From the IMG/VR virus record IMGVR_UViG_3300034407_003088, positions 15,131-79,130 of that record: a DNA stretch of 64,000 nt, one strand, 5' to 3'. How positions within the stretch are numbered: position 1 is the stretch's first letter; each line of letters begins with the position of its first letter. The translations under genes were made by a program, and so were the position numbers. Positions 14,510 through 56,957 of the stretch are shown here, piece by piece. The notes under the pieces are model-generated. The model did no database searches, was not told the DNA's origin, and saw only the letters and a list, made by a program, of their open reading frames with translations. This DNA is from a virus (Duplodnaviria > Caudoviricetes).

Positions 14510-15347
14510 TACATTTTTGTTTTATGTCTTCCCAATAGGAATACCAGTTATTATCACTTAAATCCTCTATCATAAAATCTTTTATATTTATTCTAAAGTT
14601 ATTATCTAATAGATATTCATACATTTTCTTATACTCAAAGTAATAAGAGTAATCTTGTTTTATCATTGTTACTTGTCTTAGTCTTTCAAAACAATCAAAG
14701 TCCCACTTCATATGATTAACTATTACAAAACACTCATCAACAGGATATTTCTTAGGATGATTCCATCTATCACCATATGTGTCTTGACCATCAATGATGG
14801 CATAATGTTGACCTGGTGTAACATCAATATATCCTTTACTTAATACTATTTTGTTAGGACATGCATTTGATATTGGTTCTCTAAAAAATCCACCCAATGG
14901 AAACTCTTCCCATATATTTGAGTCTCTATTTATTTTAGGAAATGTCCCATCAACTCCCAATCTATCAAGAAAACCACCACTTACAAAATCCCAACCATTC
15001 TCTTCACAATCATATATTATCTCTTCTAATGGTTTTGGATACTCATGAAACTCATCATCATCTGAAATAACCCACCAATCATTTGGTTTTGTTCGTTTAG
15101 TCTCGTTATACAAATGTGTTACATGATTCCAATCATATGGTGGGTGTTTACTAATATTATATATTTTTAATCCATAGTGACTTAAAACATCTTCAACCTC
15201 ACCCACGAGATTTTTATTCTTACCATTGTCATATACATTCACAAACACATCATCAACTATATCTTGATAGTGACCAATCATATGATATAACATATTAGGA
15301 TTATGACCACATACCGTAACTAAATTTTTGGGACTTTTACTGACCAA
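14490..15347 (-). CDS. GT-A (family 2-like) glycosyltransferase
   Basis: WWVISDDDEF DxD motif. Confidence 0.65.
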   Translation of the reverse strand: MVSKSPKNLVTVCGHNPNMLYHMIGHYQDIVDDVFVNVYDNGKNKNLVGEVEDVLSHYGLKIYNISKHPPYDWNHVTHLYNETKRTKPNDWWVISDDDEFHEYPKPLEEIIYDCEENGWDFVSGGFLDRLGVDGTFPKINRDSNIWEEFPLGGFFREPISNACPNKIVLSKGYIDVTPGQHYAIIDGQDTYGDRWNHPKKYPVDECFVIVNHMKWDFDCFERLRQVTMIKQDYSYYFEYKKMYEYLLDNNFRINIKDFMIEDLSDNNWYSYWEDIKQKCIDYRHE

Positions 15348-17620
15348 CTGGCTCTCCTACAATTTTCCCAAAATTCTGCAAGTTCAGGAAATGTTTCCAT
15401 AAAATTTTTATCTCTTCTATTATCATATTCATTGAAAAAATTAAAAAAGTCTCCACGATTCTTCACCAACCAATCAACATCATCCAATGGTGACTCCGCA
15501 TAATCAATCAATCGTCTAAACTTTTCTATTTCAAAATCATAGAATCCACTATGTCCATGACCATAAATGTGTAGATATTTATCTTCACGATATTTTTTCA
15601 TCAACTCAATATCTTCCTTCATCTTATCAATCCATTTAGTAGGTAAGATTCTCAATGATTGGTGTGATGGTTGTCTTAAATATGCAACATCTAATAAGAT
15701 TGCATAATGTCTGTATCGTTTACCATTGTAATGTTTTCTCTTTAGATGAAATACACCTTCAATAAGTTTATCAAAGTTTGGTGCACTTAATGCATTATAA
15801 GTTGACATAATTGTAACAGATGCCTTTGGAACTTCTGTTAAGAATCTGTCTATGTTATACCAAAACTTTTCAAAGTCTAATCCATCACGAATATATTCTG
15901 CCTGGTCTCCCCATGATTCTATACTTGTATAAACTGAATAATTCCAAACCAAATCATTCTCTGTAATGTATTTTGATTTCTCAATAAACTTATCAAACAA
16001 ATCATCAGGTGGACAAAAGTTTGAATTAATACTAATCTCTAATTCTGGATTAATATCAGGATTTTCAATAATATAGTCCAAGACCCTAAATGTTCCCTTA
16101 TGAAGAATTGGTTCACCACCAGTAATTCTCAATGTATGTAGGTCAGGATATAAATCTGGCCACCATTTCCAAAATGCTTGTTCATATGGATTGAATTGTT
16201 TGTAAGGTATCGGCATCATATCTGCTCTTTTCAACCAATCTGTATTATTGAATAATCCACTTGTTGGGTATGGGCCTTTCTTTTCTATCTCTTGTTGCCA
16301 TCTTGATGAACTCTTCACATCACAATAACTACATGCAAAGTTACATTGATTACTAAATGATATCTCAACATAAGGTGGATTGGTATCTTCTCTCCAATCT
16401 GAATCTCTAATCTTTCTAAAGTCTGGTAATGCCCATGCCTCTGCACTCTTCATATGTCTGTCACTAAATGCATCTTTATTTGCATCTTCTACTTTCCAAC
16501 AATAATCACATTCTTTAGGTCTTCCACCCTCTAACATCATTTTTCTTTGAAGTTTTTTAAACTTCGTATTATGTAGTGCAGATTTATTTTCTTCTAATTC
16601 CTCTAATGGTATTTTATGTGGAACAGGATGGTGACAACTATGAGTCATACCATTCTGTAATAATAATGAAACTTGATTCCATTTTGCCAAACAGAATCCT
16701 CTACCGACTTTATTTAATTCTCTTTTAAGAATATTAATTTCTTTTAAACCATGAAGACTTTTTTCTTTAAAAATATCAATATCTACTTCTTGTTTTTGTG
16801 CCTCTTCATCTTTTATTTCAAATTGTTCCAAATGAATTCTCATCTTTAATTCTTCACTTGGTTTTTTCAATTGTCCTTTTTCTTTTAGTCTATTTATTTC
16901 ATTCTCAATATAAGGTGATGAATGTTTTAATAAATGATATTTGTAAGTTTCAAAATCAACATCAAGACCTTGACATATTTCCATAAACAGAATATGTTTC
17001 ATTATATCAGAATTTTTGATATCATTTCTCTCTCTTTTCATTCTACTTAATTCTGATTCTGTATCTTTTCTTAAATCAGAGTTCAACATTTGAAGTCTTT
17101 TTCTTATTTCTTCTTTACCATACTCTGCATCTTTATCCATGTTCTCATACCAAACATCGGTATTTCTGTTATACTTATTTATAATAACAACTCGTTGTTC
17201 TAATTCTTGGTATGGACTTAAAACTTTATTAGATTTTTTTATTTTATTAATTTCTCTCTCAACTTCTGGTGAAGTATGTTTTAAACATTGTTTTATCGCA
17301 ACTCTATACTCAAGTTCTTGTGTAACATTTGTAATCTTTGCACTATCAGGAACATCGTGATAATATCTATAGATTTCCTCATCAATATATTCATTTTGAT
17401 ATTTTTCACACTCAGATAACTTAATTAAATAATAACACTCTTTATCAAATTGTTTTGTGAAGAAATCTTTATCTTGTGCACGATATAAATCCATTCTTTT
17501 TGAAACCCACTCTGTTGAATGTTGTTGTCTGATTTCATAATCAAATTGTTTTTCGGGCCATGCATTCAAATGGTTAAACTCTTTAATACCCTTAACTTCT
17601 ATTTGTACAAAATTGTTCAT
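15320..17620 (-). CDS. Twitch radical SAM protein with ~290-aa helical N-terminal extension
   Basis: CNFACSYC, ITGGEPIL, FCLAKW..SCHH..CDYCW; paralogous to 8321-9775. Confidence 0.88.
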   Translation of the reverse strand: MNNFVQIEVKGIKEFNHLNAWPEKQFDYEIRQQHSTEWVSKRMDLYRAQDKDFFTKQFDKECYYLIKLSECEKYQNEYIDEEIYRYYHDVPDSAKITNVTQELEYRVAIKQCLKHTSPEVEREINKIKKSNKVLSPYQELEQRVVIINKYNRNTDVWYENMDKDAEYGKEEIRKRLQMLNSDLRKDTESELSRMKRERNDIKNSDIMKHILFMEICQGLDVDFETYKYHLLKHSSPYIENEINRLKEKGQLKKPSEELKMRIHLEQFEIKDEEAQKQEVDIDIFKEKSLHGLKEINILKRELNKVGRGFCLAKWNQVSLLLQNGMTHSCHHPVPHKIPLEELEENKSALHNTKFKKLQRKMMLEGGRPKECDYCWKVEDANKDAFSDRHMKSAEAWALPDFRKIRDSDWREDTNPPYVEISFSNQCNFACSYCDVKSSSRWQQEIEKKGPYPTSGLFNNTDWLKRADMMPIPYKQFNPYEQAFWKWWPDLYPDLHTLRITGGEPILHKGTFRVLDYIIENPDINPELEISINSNFCPPDDLFDKFIEKSKYITENDLVWNYSVYTSIESWGDQAEYIRDGLDFEKFWYNIDRFLTEVPKASVTIMSTYNALSAPNFDKLIEGVFHLKRKHYNGKRYRHYAILLDVAYLRQPSHQSLRILPTKWIDKMKEDIELMKKYREDKYLHIYGHGHSGFYDFEIEKFRRLIDYAESPLDDVDWLVKNRGDFFNFFNEYDNRRDKNFMETFPELAEFWENCRRASWSVKVPKI

Positions 17621-18324
17621 TTCTTCCTCACTAAAGTTGTTCCTGTAGAGAATGGTAGTGGTGTTTTTGATTTAAAATCAAAGAAATCAAATACTTCCCA
17701 TTTCTTACTCTTTTTAAGTTTCTTGATTAACTTAGCTGGGCCTGACATATCATCAAACTTCTCACCTTTTGGTACAATTAAACTATCGTAATATTTTTCA
17801 TCTGTATCATGAATACTGATTATACCATTATCACTTAATCTTTCACTATATAATTCAAAATCTAATTCAACTTGTTCAAATGAATGACCTGCATCAATGT
17901 GTAAATAATCTATTTGAATATCTTTTCTTAAGAAAAAGTTATAATAGGCGTCATCTGTAAGTGCCTCTATGACTTTTGGTTGAAATGTTTCTACAAAATA
18001 ACTTTCATCGTTCCAATCAGGTTCACCATTAACACCATTTTTTGCATCAACAACATATGTGATACCATATATATCATCGGTGAAAACATCTAATTCTTTT
18101 AAATCCCATTGTGCAGCAATCATCATTCGTGGAACAAATCCACCACCACTTCCTAAACAAACACAAGTACGAGACTTCATTAAGTATGGTATTGTATAAA
18201 ACAATAAACCACCACCCAAGTAAATGTGTGTTGCACCATGTGTATCTCTGTATTTTACTGGTTCTTTTTCATCACCATTATGTAGTAATGAATCATATAT
18301 CCAGCCTTGATTTAATAACCCCAT
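17617..18324 (-). CDS. Class I SAM-dependent methyltransferase (Methyltransf_24-like)
   Basis: CLGSGGGF motif I; IDYLHIDAGHSFEQV..DF...LSDNGIISIHD. Confidence 0.8.
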   Translation of the reverse strand: MGLLNQGWIYDSLLHNGDEKEPVKYRDTHGATHIYLGGGLLFYTIPYLMKSRTCVCLGSGGGFVPRMMIAAQWDLKELDVFTDDIYGITYVVDAKNGVNGEPDWNDESYFVETFQPKVIEALTDDAYYNFFLRKDIQIDYLHIDAGHSFEQVELDFELYSERLSDNGIISIHDTDEKYYDSLIVPKGEKFDDMSGPAKLIKKLKKSKKWEVFDFFDFKSKTPLPFSTGTTLVRKK

Positions 18325-18353: not shown

Positions 18354-19046
18354 CTACCATCTCAAACGATTATAAAATGTTGCAACATGGTCTGAAAAAT
18401 AAAATCTTTTTTCACATCCGTATTTCTCTTGGTCTTCTTTAAATGCATTTTGATAAAACCAATAGTCTGCATCATATAAATCATTATCTTTTGTTGGTTT
18501 TGTAGGATATGGTTTCCAAACTGAATGATGAAATACTACTTGTCCACTATCACATGTTGAAGGTCTTATATAAGTACCAGTATCATCATGTATAATCTGT
18601 GGATGATTATATCTACTTTCTCTTGATAAACTAACTTTAAATTGTTCACCTGTATCATGACCAAGAACTATAAATTTAACTTTATCGGTTAATGATGGAT
18701 TTTGTCCATTTAATATTGGATAAAGTACGGTATATAAGTCATAATGTAAAACATTATCATCATCAACAAGTAAAACCCATCCTTCATTTACATTTTCCAT
18801 TAATGCATTTTTACCTTGATTTCCCCAACAACCACATTCTGTTTCTGTAAATGAATACATATCATCAAATAAACTTGATTCAATATCCGACTTACTACAA
18901 ACTAAAGTATCAATAGAAACATGCCATCTTATATCAAACATTTCATCATTAACTAATGGTTGTTTAAAGATTGAATCTCTAATTAAATGTAAATTGTGTG
19001 GATTCAATCCACAAGGTGTTCCTATATTTATAACTATCGGTTTCAT
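18354..19046 (-). CDS. GT-A fold glycosyltransferase-like protein
   Basis: WVLLVDDDN DxD motif; DSGQ and YDADYWF motifs. Confidence 0.6.
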   Translation of the reverse strand: MKPIVINIGTPCGLNPHNLHLIRDSIFKQPLVNDEMFDIRWHVSIDTLVCSKSDIESSLFDDMYSFTETECGCWGNQGKNALMENVNEGWVLLVDDDNVLHYDLYTVLYPILNGQNPSLTDKVKFIVLGHDTGEQFKVSLSRESRYNHPQIIHDDTGTYIRPSTCDSGQVVFHHSVWKPYPTKPTKDNDLYDADYWFYQNAFKEDQEKYGCEKRFYFSDHVATFYNRLRW

Positions 19047-20530
19047 TATGGTGCTGAATTTGTTCCTTTATTATGTACTAATATTCCATTTACAAGATAT
19101 ACATCAGAAGGTTCTACATCAAGATTAACAACTTCAACTTCACCTTCTACTCTTGATATTTGGTCAATTAAAATTAATGATTTATCTTCACCCAATAAAG
19201 ATTGTCCAACTTTACAATTACCTGCCTTCATCCATTTCCATACATTGTCTGTATCTTTTATTAATAATTCATGTTCACCAGTAACTTTAAGTTCTGAGTT
19301 AAATCCTGTAGTATTGTTTACACCAAATAAAACATAATAATGTGATGCATAATCAAAATAATAATTATCAATTACTGCAGTACTTGATTCAAATCCATCT
19401 ATTGATGATGTTGTCCAAGTTGACCATTCTTCATATCCTAAATCCTCATCAGGTAAAGTTTGAATATTAAATGTATTTACCTCATCTCCAATATCTAAGT
19501 CCTCTATGTTTTTATCACCACTTGGTGTGGATACTTTTGAACCTGGTAGGAAACATGCAACCGTTTGTCCACCATATGTATCTTGTACCTCTACAACCTT
19601 TGTTACTGCGGTGTTATATCTTGTGGAATGGTCATTGAATCCATCCGATTGTCCATCATCATTATACTTACCAGATATTGTTACGGTTTGGTCATTGTAT
19701 TGTGGCCCTGCCCACTTCTTTAATGTAATATGGTCAATAAAAATATTACCTGCACTACCTGTAAACTCTAATCTTAAATCTACTGAAGTGGAACCACTTG
19801 TATAAAAGTTATCGGTAAATAAATTCCAATTGTTTGTATTGTTTGCACCATTTCTACCAAATGTATGTGAGTTACTTTTTAGTACAACTTGTATATTTCT
19901 ATCACCAGCACTTGTATTATAAAATCTTCCTTGAATTTCATAAGTAGAATATGCATCTACACTAATAGTTTGAGTCAATGCACCATCGTCAATCTGTGCT
20001 GCAAACGAAGAACCACTACCTGCAGGGTCTGCATTTGGTGTTCCACCACTATAAGTGTGTTTCGTAACTGCATCTACAACTTCCTTTGTCCATGTTCCTG
20101 GTGTAGAAAGATTTGTCCAAGTTGCAAAATTACTATTACCAACAAGATTACTACCAACTGCAGTTTTTAAATCCGATATGGTTCCTGCACTGAATGTTCT
20201 TTGATAACCACTATCTGTTGATAAACTAAATGCATCACTTTGATTTGTAGTCCATGTAAAGTTATCACTACGAGAACCAATTTTACTTAAGAATTTACTA
20301 CCAGCATTTTGAAAAGTCAAGTTATAATTCTCAGATGTTTGTTCATCAACATAGGCGAAACCATTTAATGTATTATCCACACTATCAATTGAAAACTCAG
20401 ACATCTTAGTTTGTCCACCACCACCTGCACTTGTAAGTGAAGTGTTTGCGGTCGTATAACTTGAGATAGACGAACTAACTGCTCTTCTTAGTTTTCCTAA
20501 TGATAAGTTTTGGTTTATTGTTGTACTCAT
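19046..20530 (-). CDS. Putative virion protein: CBM4/9-like jelly-roll plus C-terminal Hint domain
   Basis: NLVGNSNF...FIDHITLK CBM-like insert; Hint from CFLPGSKV (19553-19555) through TGEH to VHN (19070-19075). Confidence 0.8.
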   Translation of the reverse strand: MSTTINQNLSLGKLRRAVSSSISSYTTANTSLTSAGGGGQTKMSEFSIDSVDNTLNGFAYVDEQTSENYNLTFQNAGSKFLSKIGSRSDNFTWTTNQSDAFSLSTDSGYQRTFSAGTISDLKTAVGSNLVGNSNFATWTNLSTPGTWTKEVVDAVTKHTYSGGTPNADPAGSGSSFAAQIDDGALTQTISVDAYSTYEIQGRFYNTSAGDRNIQVVLKSNSHTFGRNGANNTNNWNLFTDNFYTSGSTSVDLRLEFTGSAGNIFIDHITLKKWAGPQYNDQTVTISGKYNDDGQSDGFNDHSTRYNTAVTKVVEVQDTYGGQTVACFLPGSKVSTPSGDKNIEDLDIGDEVNTFNIQTLPDEDLGYEEWSTWTTSSIDGFESSTAVIDNYYFDYASHYYVLFGVNNTTGFNSELKVTGEHELLIKDTDNVWKWMKAGNCKVGQSLLGEDKSLILIDQISRVEGEVEVVNLDVEPSDVYLVNGILVHNKGTNSAP

Positions 20531-20541
20531 AATTATAAATA

Positions 20542-21549
20542 TTACTCGTTGTAGATTCGTAGATATTTTTCAACCCATTCTTCTTTATTATCGTATTTTT
20601 TTAAATTTTTTCTCAACCCTTCAAGTAAAGTTTTTCTATGTAATTCTGATAATGTTTTTATCTCTTCTACACATTTATCAAACTCTTCCTTTGTGGTTGC
20701 TCTAAATGGATAATGCATATCATCACACCAATTATGTGGTAAAATTGGTAATTTACCATAGTCAATTGCCTCAAAAATACTATATCCAAAAGGTTCATTG
20801 AGATGTGCAGAATGACTTATTCCCCAATCATCTCTATCTAAAAACTTTTTTAAGAACTGATACTTAAATTGATAAAATCTTGTATCAGAAAATTTAATTT
20901 TTAGTTTCTTTTCCCACTCTTGAACATCAAAGATATCGGTGAATGCAAATGATTTATGTCCTAATAGGAAGTGTGGGGCCTTTCTCGTTTCCATTCTGGC
21001 GGCAAAACCAATAGTGTCATTCATCACGATATCTTTGTTTCGTTCAAATTCATAATAATTCGGTATATCAATTAAATCAAAATCTTTATGTAATGGTGTT
21101 TTTTGTACACCTATCCAAATCTTGTGTTTTGACCATTTCAAAACATCTCTTTCCCAATCTTTTGATGAGGCAAAGTGCATTAATCTCGGTAGATTTAAAG
21201 TAAACCCTGCCTGTAAACTTAAGTCTAAACTAACATGAACTACATTAGAATGTATCTTATCACGATGTTCAGATATTAATTTATGTGGTGTGTAGTATCC
21301 ATGAAGTATATTGATTCTTCTACACTCTTTTATGTATTGTTCAAACTTGATTGGGTCATCACTTTGCCATACCACCTCAACATCAGTATCAAACTCCACA
21401 TTTAAATCATCTATACGATTACGATGTATCAATAGTTTACTTGGATATGTAAGTTTTGGACTAACTTCTTTTAACCATTTGTTAACCCAAACATCACTTC
21501 CACCATAAACTAATGAACCACCACCTGTACTATAATATACATCAAACAT
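20542..21549 (-). CDS. GT-B (family 4-like) glycosyltransferase
   Basis: GGSDVW N-terminal motif and EPFGYSIFEA (Ex7E) motif. Confidence 0.7.
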   Translation of the reverse strand: MFDVYYSTGGGSLVYGGSDVWVNKWLKEVSPKLTYPSKLLIHRNRIDDLNVEFDTDVEVVWQSDDPIKFEQYIKECRRINILHGYYTPHKLISEHRDKIHSNVVHVSLDLSLQAGFTLNLPRLMHFASSKDWERDVLKWSKHKIWIGVQKTPLHKDFDLIDIPNYYEFERNKDIVMNDTIGFAARMETRKAPHFLLGHKSFAFTDIFDVQEWEKKLKIKFSDTRFYQFKYQFLKKFLDRDDWGISHSAHLNEPFGYSIFEAIDYGKLPILPHNWCDDMHYPFRATTKEEFDKCVEEIKTLSELHRKTLLEGLRKNLKKYDNKEEWVEKYLRIYNE

Positions 21550-21557
21550 AATAACCT

Positions 21558-22613
21558 CTATTTTGCGTGAACATTATGAGTCATATATCCTTGTGCAAAA
21601 TATACATCATAAGGTTCACAATTTAAATTAACAACCTCTACTTCTTCCTCTACTTTTTGTATAGTGACAATTTGTACTTCTGTTAAATCGTCTCTTATTA
21701 AATAGTCATCATACTGAACTAATTCATCAGTTCTTTTATATTGATAAATATATCCACTACCCTCTTCACCTCTACTGATAGCACTTTTAACTAACCATGG
21801 ATGTTCTTCTGTAGTATTGATAATACTATTGATTCTATAATAACTTTCATAATAATCAAAGTATAAATGTTTTACACTTCCTGTTACTATTCTTGTGTCT
21901 GATATATCATCATCACTCCACTCACCCCAAGTGTCTGTAGAGTCAAAGTCTAATGGAATATCATCATTGTGATATGCCACAATAGTATCACCTACATTTA
22001 CATCTTCAATATTTTTATAAAAAGTATTACCCTTTTCATCTTGTAAAGTGATAGAAGTACCAATCAATAAACATCCACCACCACCATAAGTGTCATATAC
22101 TGCACCATAAAATTCATCAAAGTGTATTGGATGTTGTGCACTACCACTTACTGGCCCACCTTGGTCATAATCAAAGTTAGGTTTATTGTCTGTTGCATCA
22201 GGTGAAATATTAACATTCTCACCTGCGTCATTTACACCACCTACTGAAGCAAAGTCTTGATACAAATCATGAATATCTGAGTTTGCACTATTGACTGCAA
22301 TACCCTTTTCTTGATTCATATCTGATATACTCATGGAAACATTTTGACCAATAACAGGAATTAACAATGCACCATGTCCTGGTGCATCCAATATACCTAA
22401 TGTTGTGGAACCACTTGAGTAGTTCTCACCATTATTAGTGATGTTTGTTGAGACGATAACACCACTACCATTACTTGTACAAGTACCTGCAAAACTTTGT
22501 CCATGTTTTGATTTAGTTCTTGCATTTAAAGTATAGGTTTGTGAACTACCATACCCACTACCACCATCGGTAATATTAATACTTAGTATTTTCCAACCAC
22601 TTTGAAGTGCCAC
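21558..22613 (-). CDS. Putative fibre-associated virion protein with C-terminal Hint domain
   Basis: Hint from CLLIGTSI (22071-22073) through TEEH to THN (21573-21578); SMSISD..EKG...FDEFYG resembles common small virion proteins. Confidence 0.8.
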   Translation of the reverse strand: MALQSGWKILSINITDGGSGYGSSQTYTLNARTKSKHGQSFAGTCTSNGSGVIVSTNITNNGENYSSGSTTLGILDAPGHGALLIPVIGQNVSMSISDMNQEKGIAVNSANSDIHDLYQDFASVGGVNDAGENVNISPDATDNKPNFDYDQGGPVSGSAQHPIHFDEFYGAVYDTYGGGGCLLIGTSITLQDEKGNTFYKNIEDVNVGDTIVAYHNDDIPLDFDSTDTWGEWSDDDISDTRIVTGSVKHLYFDYYESYYRINSIINTTEEHPWLVKSAISRGEEGSGYIYQYKRTDELVQYDDYLIRDDLTEVQIVTIQKVEEEVEVVNLNCEPYDVYFAQGYMTHNVHAK

Positions 22614-22615
22614 TT

Positions 22616-23197
22616 CTATAACCTCTTTTTAATTTCATCTAATTCTTTTTTCAAATCTTCTATTTGTTTTTGTTGGTCATTAATACCTTGAACCAATAAA
22701 GATACAACCTTATCATATTGTATTGCTTTATATCCATCTTTACGAGTAGTTACAATTTCAGGTAATACTTGTTCAACCTCTTGTGCAATCAGTCCAATAT
22801 CATGTCCCTTTTCTCTTTCAACGATATCTGCCTTTTCATTCCAATCAAACTCTACTCCTCGTAGTCTACTGATTTTAAATAGTGAATCCTCTATAGGTCT
22901 GATGTTATCTTTTAATCTTATATCTGAAGAATAGTAAGCTGTTAGATTACCAGTAAATCTACCTGCACCATCAACATCCAATGCAACACCAGGTGAAGTA
23001 TCATTAATACCCAAACCTGTATCTGAGATTGTTATTTGTGTTGATGTGGCATTATCATCTATCCCAAGAGAATTGAATTTCTTGATATTGATGTTATCAA
23101 AAGTAATAGTACCAGTTAGTGCATCATATAAATTAGTTATATGAGCCGTTGTGATTGTATTACCACTTGATATTCCTGATTTGTCTAAATTAGCCAT
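22616..23197 (-). CDS. Tail fibre protein with Peptidase S74 intramolecular chaperone
   Basis: SSDIRLKDNI...LRGVEFDW...GLIAQEV..VLPE plus terminal coiled coil. Confidence 0.9.
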   Translation of the reverse strand: MANLDKSGISSGNTITTAHITNLYDALTGTITFDNINIKKFNSLGIDDNATSTQITISDTGLGINDTSPGVALDVDGAGRFTGNLTAYYSSDIRLKDNIRPIEDSLFKISRLRGVEFDWNEKADIVEREKGHDIGLIAQEVEQVLPEIVTTRKDGYKAIQYDKVVSLLVQGINDQQKQIEDLKKELDEIKKRL

Positions 23198-36904: not shown

Positions 36905-37063
36905 TTAAAACTCATTTTTGTTTAATTTCTTTTTACCTATTCTATACTTCCACAAATCTTTTGTATCTGGTACTGGCATATCACTAAACTCTTCCATTCG
37001 TTTTTTCAATATATCAATAGACTTAACTGCTCTTATAAATTCGTCTGAATGTCTATCTTTCAT
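36905..37063 (-). CDS. Small hypothetical protein (52 aa, not in ORF track)
   Basis: MKDRHSDEFIRAVKSIDILKKRMEEF...NEF; ATGA overlap upstream and abuts the primase start. Confidence 0.6.
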   Translation of the reverse strand: MKDRHSDEFIRAVKSIDILKKRMEEFSDMPVPDTKDLWKYRIGKKKLNKNEF

Positions 37064-38376
37064 GGTTTTGGTAAGTGGTGTGTTGTTGTTATAATAGTAT
37101 TCTCCAAATAATAATTGTCATAACCTTCAATTTGTAATCCATAAAAAGACATAGGTTCCTCATGTAATTCTACATGTGTTATTGGATTATCTAAAAACCT
37201 ATCTCCAACTTTTACATCTGTAGTTTTTACAAATTGGAATTCATTGTCTCTATTAATATATATAAACTCAATTGGTGAAAACATAAAATTATTTATCTCA
37301 ACCCAAGTTTTAAAAGTATACTGATGGATATTACTTACTTTTCCATAATCACATATGTCATTGTGTTGTTTTTCTTTATAATCTACCCATGGTCTGTTTA
37401 TATCAACTATTGTATCATCATTTACTTTATTTAATATAAAAGGTTTTGCAGGTGTTGGATAGTGATGTCCCACTAATTCTTTTATTGTACTTACTTTTAC
37501 CTTATCACCTATTTCTACTTCTCGTATTGGTTTATCAATTACAAAAGTTGAAGATTCAAGTACCTCTACTTTTGTCTCACCACCTACTTGAGCCCATATC
37601 CCACTTCTTACAAATGTACTATTTTCAAATTTCATTTCAAACATATTGTCTAACTTAGGATTTTTATTTACATGAGTTGGATTACCAACTAAATTAATAA
37701 TTTCTGAATAACTTATATTTGAACTTTGTGGTCTAATAGGTATCATTCCTAACTTATCCATTAAAAATAAACACTTCAATACTATTGGATTCCCATACTC
37801 GTCTGTATATGGTTTGATATATTCTTCACAATAATCACTATCATCATATTGACAATTAGGCATATAATCATAATAAGGTGTAGTTTTTAGAAAGTCTCTG
37901 AATAGATTCTTATATCTTGATAAAGTAATTAAACCTTCACCATGTTTTGTTGTGGGTAAATTTTTTATATAATATGTGTCATCGTCTTTTGAAAAATTTT
38001 CTCTTGATTTTGCATAAATTACTTGACATTGTGGTAATTCCTTTGTAAGTTTAGATATAAATTGTGGTTCTGGATTGAATCCTTTATCCTCTTCTCTTAT
38101 AACTAATTTTACTTTTTCATAACCCTTAACCCACAAATGTTTTTTTATTCGTTCAAAGTCTATTCCCGCAGAACCATATAACATTAAATCAGTAAGTGCA
38201 AGGTCTGTATTTATTTCTAACAAATATAACTTTTTATCTTCAGACAAAATCCAATCAAAAGTTAATAACTCACCCTCATTTACATCATTACTTACATAAT
38301 CACTAAGATAAAGTGGTGTACCAATCTGTAGTGATTTGATAATTGCCTCATTTATGATATGGAAACTTCTGACCAC
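37060..38376 (-). CDS. Circularly permuted ATP-grasp-like N-terminus fused to an inactive Hint-like domain
   Basis: FDWIL...LYLLEINTD near the N-terminus; C-terminal KPIREVEIGDKV...DVKVGD...YGLQIEGYDNYY matches Hint blocks but lacks Cys1, TxxH and HN. Confidence 0.55.
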   Translation of the reverse strand: MVRSFHIINEAIIKSLQIGTPLYLSDYVSNDVNEGELLTFDWILSEDKKLYLLEINTDLALTDLMLYGSAGIDFERIKKHLWVKGYEKVKLVIREEDKGFNPEPQFISKLTKELPQCQVIYAKSRENFSKDDDTYYIKNLPTTKHGEGLITLSRYKNLFRDFLKTTPYYDYMPNCQYDDSDYCEEYIKPYTDEYGNPIVLKCLFLMDKLGMIPIRPQSSNISYSEIINLVGNPTHVNKNPKLDNMFEMKFENSTFVRSGIWAQVGGETKVEVLESSTFVIDKPIREVEIGDKVKVSTIKELVGHHYPTPAKPFILNKVNDDTIVDINRPWVDYKEKQHNDICDYGKVSNIHQYTFKTWVEINNFMFSPIEFIYINRDNEFQFVKTTDVKVGDRFLDNPITHVELHEEPMSFYGLQIEGYDNYYLENTIITTTHHLPKP

Positions 38377-51794: not shown

Positions 51795-54700
51795 TTAATT
51801 TACTTTTAATTTTGAATCACCTGGTTCTTTTGTTATAAGTTGTGTTGGTGTTGTAGTTGTTGTTTCAACTGGTTCTCCACCATCAAATGTATTTGATGAT
51901 ACGGTTAATTGTCCACTTCCAAGACTTACACTACCAATAAATGGTGATTTACTTGAAGTAGGATGACTTGTTTGTCCATCATCTCTTGTTACTGAACCAC
52001 CAATAAATGACCTAAATAATCTTGTATCATAATAAACACTCTGATGTTCACTTGGTACAAATGAAGAACTATAATGTAGTCCTCTTGATGCACTCAAACT
52101 TGATGAATAAAAGAATACTTTTTCTTGATTATGTTCTGCCAATCTTGAACCTGTTATTACTGGTTGTAATACTTCACCAAATGTTATACCTTCTCCACCA
52201 AATGTTACACTTGCAGTTGCATAGTTGTAAGAGTGTGGTGTTTTTGCATCTATGACACCTAACTTAACTAATGTAGGTTCTCCCAATCCACCAAGTGAAC
52301 CACTATTATCATGATAGACTGCATTCAATCCACTTTCATAATATTTTTGTTCACCACCTATATCAAAGTATGCATCATCTTTTGAACCACTAATAAATCT
52401 TGTTACTGGTACACCATCTTCAAACTCATTTGCATTTTCAAAGTAACGATTATCAAACTCAGGTCTATCACCTATTACTTGTTTACTTCTTTCTAAAATA
52501 TTTGGTTCTATCAATACACCTGTAGTTGCCTTACTTCTTGCAGGAACCCAATTCTTTAATTGTGTAAATACACTTGGGTCATAGAATGTTAAAATTCTTA
52601 AATAATCAAAAAAGTTATTTGGACTTGAATATTTTTGAAAATATTCAGTTTGTAATCTTTTAAGACCTCTATAGTTTAATTTGTATTGGTCTCGTGGGTC
52701 ACCGATATAATCATCAAAATTAAAGTCTGCAATACTATATAATATATCCTCATTAACAACATCAACTGGTGAAAAATAAATACCAACTTTCTCACTATCT
52801 ATTGGTGCAAAATCTTGTGATGATTTTTCTTTTCTTTCATCAGGTGATAAATTACCAATAATAGTACTATCTTCTACCCTAACTTTAGTTGCATTTCTTC
52901 TTGTAGGGCCAATGTTTGGTACTTTCAATTGTTCCTTATCAACTAAACTTCTAAATGTATTACTTGTAAATCCATTTACTGAACCTGTTGTATCCATTTG
53001 TGATGTTACGAAATAGTTTTGTCTATTACTAACACTACTAACAAATGAAGTTGATGATAAATTAACATTATTATCAAGTGGATATCTTACTAACAAGTCG
53101 TGGTATGAAGAACTATATGAATTACCATTATAAGCTCTTGGTGCCCTAACATGATTATCAAATACACTTTGTGATAATGGTTCTGACCATAGACGATACT
53201 CCATTAATGAACCACTATATCTTGAACCGAAGTTTGTATTTTGTCCACCAAGATAAACAAATTTTGAACCAACACTACCTGTAAATGCAGCATTGATTGC
53301 ACTACTACTTGCGTGTCCGATACCAGTTGTTAAACTTGAACTTGTTTGGAACTTAATTTTTTCTCTTGTTGAGTCATATTGTTTTGTAGTTAATTCATAT
53401 TTTACATTTCTTGTGATTAAATCATCAGTCATTTGTGCACCACTTGCACTTACTCGTGTTAACATCACACTCCACATCTCATCATTATAGAATGGTAAGA
53501 GTGAAGAAGTTATACCATAAACTCCTGTTGATGCACTAACACTAAATTTTAAATACCCATAATCATCTGTAGTACCATTGTCTTTTAAATGTATTGCCCA
53601 ATCATTTTCTTTTTGTGCAATCACCATACTACCAGAACTTCCTACACTATTTGGTGTTCTAAATCTTAATTCTAAAGCTTGTGGATATTGACTATTTAAA
53701 TCGGTTGTCCATAAACTTTTTACATATTGTGAACTATGAAAATCTAATGCATATGTAAATTTTCTTTTTACTTCATAACTTACTCGTTCTTGATTATCAG
53801 GCCCACCATATTCTCTAACTCTTAATATAGAACTTGGAATACCATAACAATTTAAAATCCCTTTTAAACATCTGACACTACCTTTTGACTTGATAAAGAA
53901 TGGAATGTTATTTAATAATCGTTTCCATATTTCTTCCGTTACTTCTTCTTGTGGTGTTTCATACTTTGTGGAACCATCAGGATTTTTACCCTCAAGATAT
54001 TCAGGTAATATCAATAAGTCATTACCATTTGTAAGTTCCAATCCAAGTGATTTCGCAAACTCTGATGCAATGTCTTTACTTATACCCTCTGAAACATTAG
54101 GTGAAAGATTATTAACATCTGTAAAGTGTTTTGTATATGTCCATATCTCATCAAATTGTTGACCAGTCATATCCATAAATTCTATAAATGTATTGTTCAT
54201 CGTATCATCTTTAACATGCATAGGTAAATTATTACCAAGTCTATCATTATTAGTAGAATCGTAAGTTGACGCAGACAATATCATATTGTCAAACCAATTA
54301 CTTACTTCAGAACCACTTGAATGATAAAGTACATATGGTTTAGAACTATTTTGTTTAGGCCAACTATTTTCATGATATTGTCCAGCCGATGAACTTACAT
54401 AAGATGAACTTTCAAAATACATATAATGTTCAAATGGGTCAAAGGAATTAATTACTCTTGCTCTTTTATCTTCATTTGATTGTATGTCACTTAGTGAACC
54501 TGTTAGACTTACCAATGATGAACTTGTTTCACTATATGTTTCTATATACTCAATTTTTTTCTTAAAATTTCTTAATCTTCTCTCTGCACTTGAGTAATGT
54601 ATGAAATTACCAAATCCAATATCATCAGATTCTAAATTTAAATCTACTGATGTTCTATTAAACTCTGTATTAACTTGTACATCTAATAAACTACCACTTA

Positions 54701-56957
54701 CTAATTTTCTTTCAATATCTTTATTAAGTTGGTTGTCACTTCCTAATAATGTGTTATGTGTTTCAAATCTTGTTGACCTAAAATTAATTGGATTATCAAC
54801 TGAATTTAAATTAGGTAATTGTAAAAATAAACCATCTGGTTCTTCATCTATAAATGGTATTAATCTAACCACCTCAACATGAGATGGTAATCTTTTTTCT
54901 ACAAAATATACTTTGTCTAATTCTTCTTTGTCACCTGCCAATGGTAGTTTTAATTTAAATACTCTTTTTGAATCTTGAGTTTCAAAGAAGTTTTTATTTT
55001 CATTTGTGATTAAATAATAATCATCATCACAAACCATATAGGTTTTAAATCTTTCTATATTATTTTTCTCATATAAAACATTCCATCCATACCAATCAGT
55101 ATCTCTACCACTTGGGCCATCATGACCAACATTATCTGCAGCATCTTGATATGATATACTTACTCTTACTTTATTATAATCAAGAACCTCTGTAATTGTT
55201 GCAACATAATCAAAGTGAAATGTTTCATTTTCAAATCTTTCAACCCAACTTTCAACAACACGAGTTTCGTACTCTATTGTTACTTCGTCTTCAGGTGAAA
55301 TAGGTAATGGTGTTTGTCTAATGAATTCTTCTAATGCAGGTAACTCTGCATGTAATACCACCTCTTCTTTAATGTCTGGTACAATAACTTCGTTTTGATA
55401 TATGTTGTTATTGTTTGCACCATATAAACCCCATCCATCTCCACCATCTATTAATCCACCTTGTGGTAAACCATTACCTGGTGTTAATGGGTCTGTACCT
55501 TCTTCACCTAAATCTGCATTACCTGTTACATCAAAATCAATGTATGCAGGTCTGGCAGAACCTTGTCTACTTGCACGATATGGGTCAACATAACCACTTG
55601 CTGCTCTTTGTTCTGCAAGTTGTTGTGCTCTTTTTGACTGACCCATTCTAAATCTATTTCTGTCTTCAAGAAATCTTTCTTGCCAATGTTTAGTCTCAGT
55701 AGTCTTCCATTTACCAAGAGTCGCTGCAACTATATTGTTTGCAAAAATTGTGTGGTCTTTATCTAATACTAAGTTCCACACTTTAAAAGGTGGTTTCTGA
55801 TAATATACTTTACCAATCTCTCTTGACATGAACCAACCATCTTTTGTTCTGATAGGATGGTGGTCGGTAACGATAAGGTTTTTATATTTAACCATCAAGT
55901 CACCAAAACCTCTTTCACTCTTTATGACTTTCTTAACTCTTGCAACACCTTTATCTGTTCTGACTTTCATACCAATCTTCATCATCTTGATTGGAACTTG
56001 TCTACCACTACTTAATGTTACTTTTGTATTAGGATGAAAACAAACTCCATCGTAATCAAACATACCACCATAATCCTCATCTTCTTCATCAGGTAGGTCT
56101 GGTGGTGGTGGGTCTGGTTCAGGTTCAGGTGGTAACTCTTCATAAGGTGGTGGAGGTGGAGGCGGGTCTGGAATACTATCATCTAAACTATGAGTAATCT
56201 CAACAGGAACCTCTATCGTTTCTACCACACTTTCAAGATATTGTCTTGTTATTGTTTTTTCAAATATTCTTGGTAATCTAATTTCACCACCAACCATATT
56301 TTGTGTAAACCCTCTATCATTATCTTGTAGGTTTGCAACTAATATTCCTGGTTCATTTTCATCAAACTTAATAGAACCATTTGCTCCACTACCTGCAGTA
56401 AGAAATGGTTGAAACTTTACAATAGAATTCATCTCTCTAAAGTTTTTATGATATGTTTGGTTTTTAAAATCTTGTGTTTTAACTACGATTTCTGTTCTAT
56501 CACCACTAATCTTATCAAGTGAATATTTTAAATCTCGTATAAATAATTCTTTTGGTGGATTATCTGCAAGTGATTGAGCAGATGCATTTGGTGGTGGGGC
56601 AGTATAATATCTTGTTTCACCATTTACATTTTTTGTGACAACTTTACCTGCATATAATTCACCATCACCATTTACCATTACTAAATGGTCTCTACCTGCT
56701 AACTTTCTTAGAAATCTATATTGTACAATATATTCACCATCCGATAATCCATTATCTCTTAGATGTTGACCAACATTTAAATCTAAAAACCCTTCAGTAT
56801 TTACATCAGGATTAAACTTATCTGTGAGCACAAGTTCATCATTTTGGAAAACTTCTAAAACTATATAGTCTTTACTATCTCTTCCAAAACTACTATATAC
56901 CCTTTCAGGTTTATAATATTGTTCTCTCTCTTGATTATTAAATCCGTATTCTGCCAT
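51795..56957 (-). CDS. Large baseplate wedge-like protein (gp7/P2 I-like segment, LamG) with internal Vint-type Hint domain
   Basis: IWKRLLNNIP..IKSKGS..C..GIL..YG wedge motif; LamG-like WSVML...LMEYRLW; CFHPNTKV...VTDHHPI...VWNLVL...IVAATLG. Confidence 0.75.
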   Translation of the reverse strand: MAEYGFNNQEREQYYKPERVYSSFGRDSKDYIVLEVFQNDELVLTDKFNPDVNTEGFLDLNVGQHLRDNGLSDGEYIVQYRFLRKLAGRDHLVMVNGDGELYAGKVVTKNVNGETRYYTAPPPNASAQSLADNPPKELFIRDLKYSLDKISGDRTEIVVKTQDFKNQTYHKNFREMNSIVKFQPFLTAGSGANGSIKFDENEPGILVANLQDNDRGFTQNMVGGEIRLPRIFEKTITRQYLESVVETIEVPVEITHSLDDSIPDPPPPPPPYEELPPEPEPDPPPPDLPDEEDEDYGGMFDYDGVCFHPNTKVTLSSGRQVPIKMMKIGMKVRTDKGVARVKKVIKSERGFGDLMVKYKNLIVTDHHPIRTKDGWFMSREIGKVYYQKPPFKVWNLVLDKDHTIFANNIVAATLGKWKTTETKHWQERFLEDRNRFRMGQSKRAQQLAEQRAASGYVDPYRASRQGSARPAYIDFDVTGNADLGEEGTDPLTPGNGLPQGGLIDGGDGWGLYGANNNNIYQNEVIVPDIKEEVVLHAELPALEEFIRQTPLPISPEDEVTIEYETRVVESWVERFENETFHFDYVATITEVLDYNKVRVSISYQDAADNVGHDGPSGRDTDWYGWNVLYEKNNIERFKTYMVCDDDYYLITNENKNFFETQDSKRVFKLKLPLAGDKEELDKVYFVEKRLPSHVEVVRLIPFIDEEPDGLFLQLPNLNSVDNPINFRSTRFETHNTLLGSDNQLNKDIERKLVSGSLLDVQVNTEFNRTSVDLNLESDDIGFGNFIHYSSAERRLRNFKKKIEYIETYSETSSSLVSLTGSLSDIQSNEDKRARVINSFDPFEHYMYFESSSYVSSSAGQYHENSWPKQNSSKPYVLYHSSGSEVSNWFDNMILSASTYDSTNNDRLGNNLPMHVKDDTMNNTFIEFMDMTGQQFDEIWTYTKHFTDVNNLSPNVSEGISKDIASEFAKSLGLELTNGNDLLILPEYLEGKNPDGSTKYETPQEEVTEEIWKRLLNNIPFFIKSKGSVRCLKGILNCYGIPSSILRVREYGGPDNQERVSYEVKRKFTYALDFHSSQYVKSLWTTDLNSQYPQALELRFRTPNSVGSSGSMVIAQKENDWAIHLKDNGTTDDYGYLKFSVSASTGVYGITSSLLPFYNDEMWSVMLTRVSASGAQMTDDLITRNVKYELTTKQYDSTREKIKFQTSSSLTTGIGHASSSAINAAFTGSVGSKFVYLGGQNTNFGSRYSGSLMEYRLWSEPLSQSVFDNHVRAPRAYNGNSYSSSYHDLLVRYPLDNNVNLSSTSFVSSVSNRQNYFVTSQMDTTGSVNGFTSNTFRSLVDKEQLKVPNIGPTRRNATKVRVEDSTIIGNLSPDERKEKSSQDFAPIDSEKVGIYFSPVDVVNEDILYSIADFNFDDYIGDPRDQYKLNYRGLKRLQTEYFQKYSSPNNFFDYLRILTFYDPSVFTQLKNWVPARSKATTGVLIEPNILERSKQVIGDRPEFDNRYFENANEFEDGVPVTRFISGSKDDAYFDIGGEQKYYESGLNAVYHDNSGSLGGLGEPTLVKLGVIDAKTPHSYNYATASVTFGGEGITFGEVLQPVITGSRLAEHNQEKVFFYSSSLSASRGLHYSSSFVPSEHQSVYYDTRLFRSFIGGSVTRDDGQTSHPTSSKSPFIGSVSLGSGQLTVSSNTFDGGEPVETTTTTPTQLITKEPGDSKLKVN

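What the first reader, a model, noticed from the sequence alone, without database searches (positions are those of the whole stretch)
19046..22613. Hint autoprocessing domains at the C-termini of two virion-type proteins, with a shared DTYGG pre-site motif
Both Hints keep Cys1, TxxH and the terminal HN. They are followed only by KGTNSAP* or VHAK*, with no Cys/Ser/Thr at +1 and no real C-extein, so canonical splicing is not expected. Upstream junctions are DTYGGQTVA|C and DTYGGGG|C, and the baseplate Hint has DYGGMFDYDGV|C. N-terminal cleavage through a thioester, as in Hedgehog and BIL domains, would let each protein be ligated to a nucleophile; one would end in a ubiquitin-like Gly-Gly. Inference: a covalent virion cross-linking or tagging system.
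Basis: partly seen in the sequence, partly recalled or inferred. Interest (0 to 1): 0.85.

Follow-up and report, generated by a model that had tools for sequence, protein, structure and literature searches.

The report
Self-processing Hint caps on phage proteins
Two neighbouring fibre-type proteins of an uncultured marine phage end in intact intein-like (Hint) domains, each followed by a tiny tail with one always-conserved lysine, so they probably cut themselves out after translation and may re-join the protein's new end to that lysine, a chemistry untested in phages.

Summary
Genes 19046-20530 and 21558-22613 (minus strand) each end in a roughly 165-residue Hint domain with Cys1, TxxH and a terminal His-Asn, followed by only 7 or 4 residues. 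Models match bacterial intein-like (BIL) domains best: 2LWY and Tetrahymena BIL2.

The catalytic residues, the D-x-Y-[GA]-G pre-site and the tails are invariant in about 190 homologues that are only 40-47% identical. No Hint-less orthologue was found, so this is a fixed module and not a mobile intein.

- The tails are not junk. Among 81 diverged C-terminal Hint caps, 80 tails carry lysine (19 expected), and 77 carry exactly one.
- The YGG of the third, internal Vint-type Hint is not conserved in close relatives.

Both junctions appear to be under selection. I therefore favour self-excision, with the thioester either hydrolysed or caught by the tail lysine as in BIL2. Cross-linking to other virion proteins remains possible but has no specific support.

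The order S74-capped protein / Hint protein / putative glycosyltransferase / Hint protein is kept in 11 of 11 related contigs.

This scan has already found the same glycine-Hint-lysine cap on other phage DNA several times. I found no paper describing it, and nothing has been tested at the bench.

The parts
19046..20530 (-). Gene for P0001 (494 aa): an N-part with a CBM4-like sugar-binding sandwich, then a C-terminal Hint and a tail
   Evidence: ORF and translation. Foldseek matches CBM4-2 and a hyaluronan-binding module as well as Hint structures; about 180 full-length homologues.
19568..19582 (-). DTYGG pre-site motif of P0001 (residues 317-321)
   Evidence: D317, Y319 and G321 are invariant and residue 320 is G or A in 48 aligned homologues (121 listed).
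19070..19555 (-). Hint domain of P0001, Cys326 to Asn487 (block B TGEH at 417-420; conserved acidic loop LPDEDLGY.EW)
   Evidence: Cys1 and HN present in 121 of 121.
19049..19069 (-). Tail KGTNSAP of P0001; K488 and G489 invariant, one Lys only
20542..21549 (-). P0002 (335 aa), a putative CAP10-like glycosyltransferase lying between the two Hint genes
   Evidence: No Pfam, PHROG or NCBIfam hit. Atlas feature score 0.99 to viral clusters auto-named 'Glycosyl transferase CAP10 domain'. Kept between the two Hint genes in 11 of 11 loci.
21558..22613 (-). Gene for P0003 (351 aa): beta-sandwich at residues 8-89, a conserved but low-confidence segment at 118-178, then a C-terminal Hint and a tail
22080..22094 (-). 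DTYGG pre-site motif of P0003 (residues 174-178), followed by GG|C
   Evidence: Y176, G178 and G180 are invariant.
21573..22073 (-). Hint domain of P0003, Cys181 to Asn347 (block B TEEH at 268-271)
   Evidence: Cys1 present in 72 of 72 and HN in 70 of 72; the other two are truncated.
21561..21572 (-). Tail VHAK of P0003; V348 and K351 invariant, one Lys only
22616..23197 (-). 193-aa fibre-end protein with a Peptidase_S74 self-cleaving chaperone domain, immediately upstream of P0003
   Evidence: Pfam PF13884 at 65 bits against a cut-off of 22, plus PHROG tail-fibre C-terminal families. Kept in 11 of 11 loci.
55713..56042 (-). Internal Vint-type Hint in the 1720-aa baseplate-region protein P0004 (Cys306, TDHH, ends IVAATLG, no His-Asn)
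   Evidence: Pfam PF14623 at 60.9 bits against a cut-off of 27..
37063..37566 (-). Catalytically dead Hint at the C-terminus of P0009 (Cys1 replaced by Glu271, TxxH by SNIH, HN by TT)
   Evidence: hmmsearch E 1.6e-8 with a seed Hint profile. Alignment.

Best explanation
P0001 and P0003 are fibre- or decoration-type phage proteins. Each carries a fixed, catalytically competent, BIL-type Hint domain as a self-excising C-terminal cap.

Proposed steps:
1. After folding, Cys1 attacks the preceding peptide bond (Ala325 or Gly180) and makes a thioester.
2. The invariant terminal Asn cyclises and cuts the Hint from its 4-7 residue tail.
3. The thioester is either hydrolysed or, as I think somewhat more likely, attacked by an amine of the tail. 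The nucleophile would be the single conserved lysine side chain, as in Tetrahymena BIL2, or the freed alpha-amine, as in A-type BILs.
4. The mature protein is then the N-part, with or without the small lysine tail, and the Hint is discarded.

Functionally the cap would act like the S74 self-cleaving chaperone on the neighbouring fibre gene: a temporary end-module that controls folding or assembly.

What is shown: the fold, the catalytic residues, their conservation, the fixed presence of the domain, the lysine rule and the conserved gene order.

What is inferred: that cleavage happens, which nucleophile resolves the thioester, and that the proteins sit in the virion.
For: - Fold: the best PDB matches are BIL domains 2LWY (TM 0.88 and 0.80) and BIL2 6TMM/6Y75, then inteins and Hedgehog.
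- Catalytic set: Cys1, T..H and HN are invariant in 121 and 70 homologues that are only 40-47% identical in the Hint.
- Conservation: the Hint is about as conserved as the N-part (47.6 vs 44.7% in one family, 46.5 vs 54.8% in the other).
- Dead-copy control: a copy in the same window (P0009) has lost all three catalytic motifs, which shows what drift looks like.
- Fixed domain: a search with the N-part alone returned 120 listed homologues. All 63 new ones checked (59 complete, 4 truncated inside the Hint) and those already tabulated carry the Hint.
- Lysine rule: in 81 diverged C-terminal caps from 1.84 billion representatives, 80 tails hold Lys (expected 19.3, z 16.8). With +1 not Lys the count is 52 of 53, and 77 of 81 hold exactly one Lys.
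- Pre-site: -1 is Gly in 43 of 71 caps.
- Terminal Asn: its conservation is not needed for N-cleavage alone. Hedgehog and Vint domains lack it, as does P0004 here.
- Precedents: BILs mostly cleave (PMC7664689), and BIL2 forms a Lys isopeptide (PMC8616854).
- Context: the cassette with an S74-capped fibre protein is kept in 11 of 11 loci.
Against: - No experiment exists on any member. No virion proteomics of a relative was accessible.
- Both Hints score below the Pfam gathering cut-offs for every Hint family.
- The tail lysine could be catalytic or structural rather than the acceptor.
- I could not measure its distance to the scissile bond. The tools give no coordinates, and the tails have low pLDDT.
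- A biological reason for re-attaching 4-7 residues is not obvious.
- Virion location rests on gene neighbourhood and on annotations of distant relatives that share only the Hint.
Confidence: 0.55

Rival explanations
1. Plain pro-domain removal. The thioester is simply hydrolysed, giving an N-part with a free Gly or Ala carboxyl end. The tail lysine serves the Hint itself, in catalysis or in holding the C-terminal strand, and is discarded with it or as a free peptide.
For: - BIL domains without a +1 nucleophile give mainly cleaved products (PMC7664689).
- Lys is often directly at +1, also between tandem Hints (HN-K-G(n)-C). This fits a role as part of the Hint's last motif.
- The analogy with the adjacent S74 cap.
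Against: - When +1 is not Lys, the single Lys sits anywhere from +2 to +14, often at the very end. That is odd for a fixed catalytic or structural residue.
- Hydrolysis alone does not explain the invariant terminal Asn.
Confidence: 0.25
2. The thioester is passed to a nucleophile on another molecule, such as a lysine of a virion protein, and covalently anchors or cross-links the fibre or decoration.
For: - BIL2 can conjugate its N-flank to other proteins without ATP (PMC8616854).
- Gly-rich, unhindered -1 sites resemble those of Hedgehog and ubiquitin.
- A strongly conserved but poorly modelled 25-60 residue segment lies just before Cys1 and could be a docking element.
Against: - No candidate acceptor was identified.
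- The built-in single lysine and the conserved Asn point to an intramolecular outcome.
- The downstream neighbours are enzymes (a methyltransferase and a radical SAM protein by Pfam; P0002 is a putative glycosyltransferase), not structural partners. They are unrelated to the neighbours in AD1 and NCTB.
Confidence: 0.12
3. The Hints are not processed. They stay on the mature proteins as structural or binding domains.
For: A dead Hint is retained at the end of P0009, so Hint folds can be kept for non-catalytic roles.
Against: Complete conservation of Cys1, T..H, HN and the lysine tail over hundreds of diverged sequences, which contrasts with the dead copy.
Confidence: 0.06
4. Decaying selfish inteins that landed near the 3' ends of the genes.
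For: Phages are rich in inteins.
Against: - No homing endonuclease domain.
- No +1 nucleophile.
- No Hint-less allele in the N-part search.
- The same cassette is kept in 11 of 11 loci down to 40% identity.
Confidence: 0.02

Closest known systems
A-type bacterial intein-like (BIL) domains / Pfam PT-HINT (e.g. the Clostridium thermocellum BIL, PDB 2LWY)
   Same: - Best structural match.
- Cys1, TxxH and a terminal His-Asn.
- No +1 nucleophile and no endonuclease.
- Sits in variable, surface-type proteins.
- Known to cleave, and sometimes to ligate without a nucleophilic side chain (PMC7664689).
   Different: - Here the domain is the very end of the protein, with only a 4-7 residue single-lysine tail, not a toxin or other C-terminal domain.
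- The hosts are phage fibre-type proteins.
- The PT-HINT score is 21.9 bits, below the 27.7 cut-off, for P0001, and there is no hit for P0003.
BIL2 of the Tetrahymena thermophila BUBL1 polyubiquitin-like locus (PDB 6TMM, 6Y75)
   Same: - Top Foldseek hit for P0003 and second for P0001.
- A glycine-ended N-flank.
- The product is an isopeptide between the N-flank's C-terminus and a lysine of the C-flank or of another protein (PMC8616854).
   Different: - The N-flanks here are not ubiquitin-like domains.
- The C-flank is a 4-7 residue tail, not a folded Ubl.
- No chemistry has been shown.
- About 15-19% sequence identity.
Hedgehog C-terminal autoprocessing (Hog) domain (PDB 1AT0)
   Same: - A C-terminal Hint that cleaves at a Gly|Cys-Phe type junction.
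- It passes the N-part to a nucleophile via a thioester.
   Different: - Hog has a sterol-recognition region and no catalytic terminal Asn.
- Here there is HN plus a lysine tail and no such region.
Peptidase S74 intramolecular chaperone of phage tail fibres and spikes
   Same: - A self-removing C-terminal module on fibre proteins.
- One is encoded on the gene next door (22616-23197).
   Different: - Unrelated fold and chemistry: a Ser-Lys dyad protease with no thioester.
- This is a functional analogy only.
Vint (vWA-Hint) domains, Pfam PF14623 (for the third Hint, in P0004)
   Same: - Scores 60.9 bits, above the cut-off.
- Cys1 and TDHH are present and there is no terminal His-Asn, so only N-terminal cleavage is possible.
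   Different: - No vWA domain was detected.
- It sits inside a 1720-aa phage baseplate-region protein behind a proline/acidic linker.

Membership tests
Hint (Hedgehog/intein) superfamily | Hint fold | tested here: met
   AF2 models have Hint-part pLDDT mostly 80-95. Foldseek probability is 1.00 to BILs, inteins and Hedgehog.
Hint (Hedgehog/intein) superfamily | N-terminal nucleophile (Cys1) and block B Thr-x-x-His | tested here: met
   C326 with T417/H420, and C181 with T268/H271. These are invariant or nearly so in alignments A1 and A2.
Class 1 inteins | Cys, Ser or Thr at +1 and a real C-extein that is ligated | tested here: not met
   +1 is Lys in 121 of 121 and Val in 70 of 70. Only 4-9 residues follow the Hint.
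Class 1 inteins | Mobile insertion with intein-less alleles, often carrying a homing endonuclease | tested here: not met
   No Hint-less orthologue appeared in the search with the N-part alone. The domain is about 165 aa with no endonuclease.
A-type BIL / PT-HINT | Cys1 plus C-terminal His-Asn, without a +1 nucleophile | tested here: met
A-type BIL / PT-HINT | Match to the family profile (Pfam PF07591) above its gathering score | tested here: not met
   P0001 scores 21.9 bits against 27.7, and P0003 has no hit. Many homologues carry a precomputed PF07591 hit, so these look like borderline relatives.
A-type BIL / PT-HINT | Autocleavage or ligation activity | not testable with these tools
   Needs expression and mass spectrometry.
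BUBL-type BIL2 conjugation module | Ubiquitin-like N-flank ending in Gly-Gly | tested here: not met
   The N-parts are a CBM4-like sandwich (P0001) and a beta-sandwich plus a low-confidence segment (P0003). The ends are ...[IV]A|C and GGxG|C.
BUBL-type BIL2 conjugation module | Lysine acceptor in the C-flank | tested here: inconclusive
   A single invariant Lys is present. The family-wide rule is 80 of 81 tails. Its role as the nucleophile is untested.
Hedgehog Hog domain | Sterol-recognition region after the Hint, with no need for a terminal Asn | tested here: not met
   Only 4-7 residues follow the Hint, and HN is invariant.
Vint (PF14623), third Hint only | Profile match above the gathering score | tested here: met
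   60.9 bits against 27, E 1.7e-16.
Vint (PF14623), third Hint only | vWA domain N-terminal to the Hint | tested here: not met
   No vWA hit in the Pfam scan of P0004.

The most novel reading that the evidence does not exclude
The Hint caps act as self-contained, ATP-free conjugation devices. The Gly- or Ala-thioester is handed to an external nucleophile, either a lysine of another virion protein or an amino or hydroxyl group of a glycan made by the flanking sugar-modifying genes. The fibre or decoration protein is then covalently anchored, making this a phage counterpart of Hedgehog cholesteroylation or BUBL ubiquitin-like tagging.
Probability: 0.12. Interest if true: 0.9.

Novelty: new variant of a known kind. 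Interest (0 to 1): 0.66.

Why it matters
- If these caps are active, thioester (intein-type) chemistry is a routine step in maturing phage fibre and decoration proteins. That role is so far credited only to S74-type protease chaperones.
- If the single tail lysine is the acceptor, this would be a natural 'isopeptide splicing' module of about 165 residues that needs no cofactor. Protein chemists could use it as a ligation or capping tool.
- The family is large: 2468 clusters at E <= 1e-3, although weaker hits will include ordinary inteins.
- The prediction can be tested with one expression construct and a mass spectrometer.
- The conserved pairing of two such proteins with a putative protein glycosyltransferase gives a concrete small system to study.

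Tried and rejected
- Literature: eight full-text searches found nothing on C-terminal Hint caps of phage fibres. The jumbo-phage overview (PMC7824862) mentions only S74 and ordinary inteins. The phiCbK and CBB papers concern terminase inteins.
- Virion proteomics of cultured relatives: the RAY/Deimos-Minion table (PMC6690015) covers a different phage group. The Dickeya AD1 paper has no virion data. The Erwinia Y3 proteome paper is not in the library.
- Kinship with the PaBG/AD1/NCTB jumbo phages: only the Hint is shared. The N-parts and neighbouring genes show no similarity.
- P0002 as GT4, as another first-stage note suggested: no Pfam, PHROG or NCBIfam hit. Only the Atlas feature search points to CAP10-like transferases.
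- N-part of P0003: the Atlas feature search scored 0.83, below the useful range. NCBIfam gave nothing.
- Complex prediction (a trimer of the P0003 N-part) was not available.
- Fold search library 'atlas' was not available.
- The distance from the tail lysine to the scissile bond could not be measured, because models are returned without coordinates.
- A shared YGG motif including the baseplate Hint was rejected, because it is not conserved there.


Full report
**What is there**

The window is 64 kb of a 79-kb, roughly 30% G+C contig with all genes on the minus strand.

At the finding's coordinates lie three genes:
- P0003: 21558-22613, 351 aa.
- P0002: 20542-21549, 335 aa.
- P0001: 19046-20530, 494 aa.

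- P0001 reads DTYGGQTVA|C326, has TGEH at 417-420 and ends VHN487|KGTNSAP.
- P0003 reads DTYGGGG|C181, has TEEH at 268-271 and ends THN347|VHAK.

**Are they Hint domains?**

Pfam sees Hint_2, PT-HINT, Intein_splicing and Hint, but all below their gathering scores. PHROG 38766 ('virion structural protein') matches only the Hint part.

AF2 models built on 48 and 50 homologues give confident Hint parts. Foldseek against the PDB puts bacterial intein-like domains first:
- C. thermocellum BIL 2LWY: TM 0.88, rmsd 2.0 A for P0001.
- Tetrahymena BIL2 6TMM/6Y75.
- Then mini-inteins and Hedgehog 1AT0.

The middle of P0001 also matches CBM4-type sugar-binding modules. P0003 has a beta-sandwich at residues 8-89 and a conserved but low-confidence segment at 118-178, just before the Hint.

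**Conservation**

A search with the Hint region of P0001 gave 293 relatives. In the 120 listed:
- Cys1, HN, +1 Lys and +2 Gly never change.
- The pre-site is EIQDTY[GA]G..[IV]A|C.
- The tail is KG..S.P, although Hint identity is only about 45%.

For P0003, 70 relatives keep EFYG..YD.YGG.G|C and HN|VH.K.

Searching with the N-part of P0001 alone again returned only Hint-bearing proteins. The four shorter ones break off inside the Hint. The Hint is therefore fixed and not a mobile intein.

The Hint is about as conserved as the cargo. In contrast, a fourth Hint-like domain in the window, at the end of P0009, has lost Cys1, TxxH and HN.

**The pre-site motif**

Profile-profile alignment shows that homology between the two proteins begins about 25 residues before Cys1 and includes D.YGG. 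Pre-site plus Hint were therefore duplicated as one unit and both copies are kept under selection.

The third 'YGG' lies before the internal Hint of the 1720-aa protein P0004 and is not conserved in relatives that are 83-91% identical. There the conserved junction is FDYDGV|C306.

That domain is a Vint-type Hint: PF14623 at 60.9 bits, TDHH present, no His-Asn. It can only cleave at its N-terminus.

**The wider family and the lysine rule**

A profile of the two Hints, run against 1.84 billion representative proteins, found 2468 clusters at E <= 1e-3. Weaker hits will include ordinary inteins.

Of the 146 best new proteins, 83 end in a Hint with at most 16 residues after HN, on cargos of 119 to 3399 aa. 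For these terminal caps:
- -1 is Gly in 43 of 71 and Gly-Gly in 32 of 71.
- Eighty of 81 non-empty tails contain lysine, against 19.3 expected from composition (z = 16.8). No other residue comes close.
- The rule holds for 52 of 53 tails whose +1 is not Lys. That lysine lies outside the profile alignment, so profile bias does not explain the result.
- Seventy-seven of 81 tails have exactly one lysine.

The short tails are therefore a functional element. The other top hits are mostly tandem Hint arrays joined by HN-K-G(n)-C linkers.

**Context**

Upstream of P0003 lie a 193-aa fibre-end protein with a Peptidase_S74 self-cleaving chaperone domain and a 2915-aa protein. Downstream of P0001 lie a 230-aa ORF, a methyltransferase and a radical SAM protein.

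P0002 has no family hit. By Atlas features it resembles viral clusters named CAP10-type glycosyltransferase; this is a lead only.

The order S74 protein / Hint-B / P0002 / Hint-A / methyltransferase is kept in 11 of 11 IMG/VR contigs, down to about 40% identity.

In the cultured-phage collection the Hint also caps collagen-like tail-fibre proteins of Dickeya AD1 and Erwinia jumbo phages and of phage NCTB. In NCTB the pre-sites are poly-glycine (GGGG|C and GGGGGG|C) and the tails carry lysine; in AD1 the pre-site is STSG|C and the tail also carries lysine. Apart from the Hint, those proteins and their neighbours are unrelated to the ones here.

**How it most likely works**

Established knowledge:
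- BIL domains lacking a +1 nucleophile mainly give N- and C-cleavage (PMC7664689).
- Tetrahymena BIL2 resolves its thioester on a lysine side chain and forms an isopeptide without ATP (PMC8616854, section 2.4).

Both junctions are conserved here: Cys1 and TxxH at one end, and His-Asn plus a one-lysine tail at the other. I therefore infer that both junctions react.

The product is then the N-part with a free end or, somewhat more likely, the N-part re-joined to the tail through its lysine or its freed alpha-amine. The Hint is discarded.

**Prior sightings**

This scan has already reported the same glycine-Hint-lysine cap on other phage DNA many times. My counts were made independently and agree with those notes. 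I found no publication describing the module.

Noticed in passing
window 37060-38376 (-), Hint-like part 37063-37566: P0009 (438 aa) ends in a catalytically dead Hint: Cys1 is replaced by Glu, TxxH by SNIH and HN by TT. The N-terminal domain has no Pfam, PHROG or NCBIfam match. It is the fourth Hint-superfamily domain in this window.
   Followed up: partly
window 51795-56957 (-), Hint at 55713-56042: The 1720-aa baseplate-region protein carries an internal Vint-type Hint behind a polyproline/acidic linker. N-terminal cleavage would detach the first 305 residues as a thioester. The C-terminal two-thirds resemble proteins of Microcystis phage Mel-JY01 and Flavobacterium phages that lack this N-part.
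   Followed up: partly
window 22616-23197 (-): A stand-alone 193-aa protein made of a short fibre-end segment plus a Peptidase_S74 self-cleaving chaperone domain. It is translationally coupled to the Hint-capped P0003 and conserved in 11 of 11 related contigs.
   Followed up: partly
window 20542-21549 (-) and 18354-19046 (-): P0002 resembles CAP10-type (protein O-) glycosyltransferases by language-model features only. The 230-aa ORF after P0001 has a VDDD (DxD-like) motif but no family hit. Together with the methyltransferase (17617-18324) and the radical SAM protein (15320-17620), they suggest that the Hint-capped proteins are modified, or that they border a glycan island.
   Followed up: partly
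representative proteins P0201, P0202, P0259, P0310 and others: Proteins made of 3 to more than 10 tandem Hint domains joined only by HN-K-G(n)-C linkers, so that each 'extein' would be a Lys-(Gly)n peptide. Their origin and purpose are unknown.
   Followed up: no
L006 5129-5542, L013 12817-13317; L002 6492-6953 (phage NCTB gene 135): Stand-alone Hint-only genes of about 137-166 aa, with HN and a short tail, sit next to Hint-capped fibre genes in related contigs and in phage NCTB.
   Followed up: no
window 19426-19458 (-) (P0001 residues 358-368) and 21918-21956 (-) (P0003 residues 220-232): An invariant acidic, Trp-containing loop (LPDEDLGY.EW, and PLDFD..DTW..W) is inserted between Hint blocks A and B in both families and in NCTB. 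It could be a metal site or a docking site for the tail lysine.
   Followed up: no
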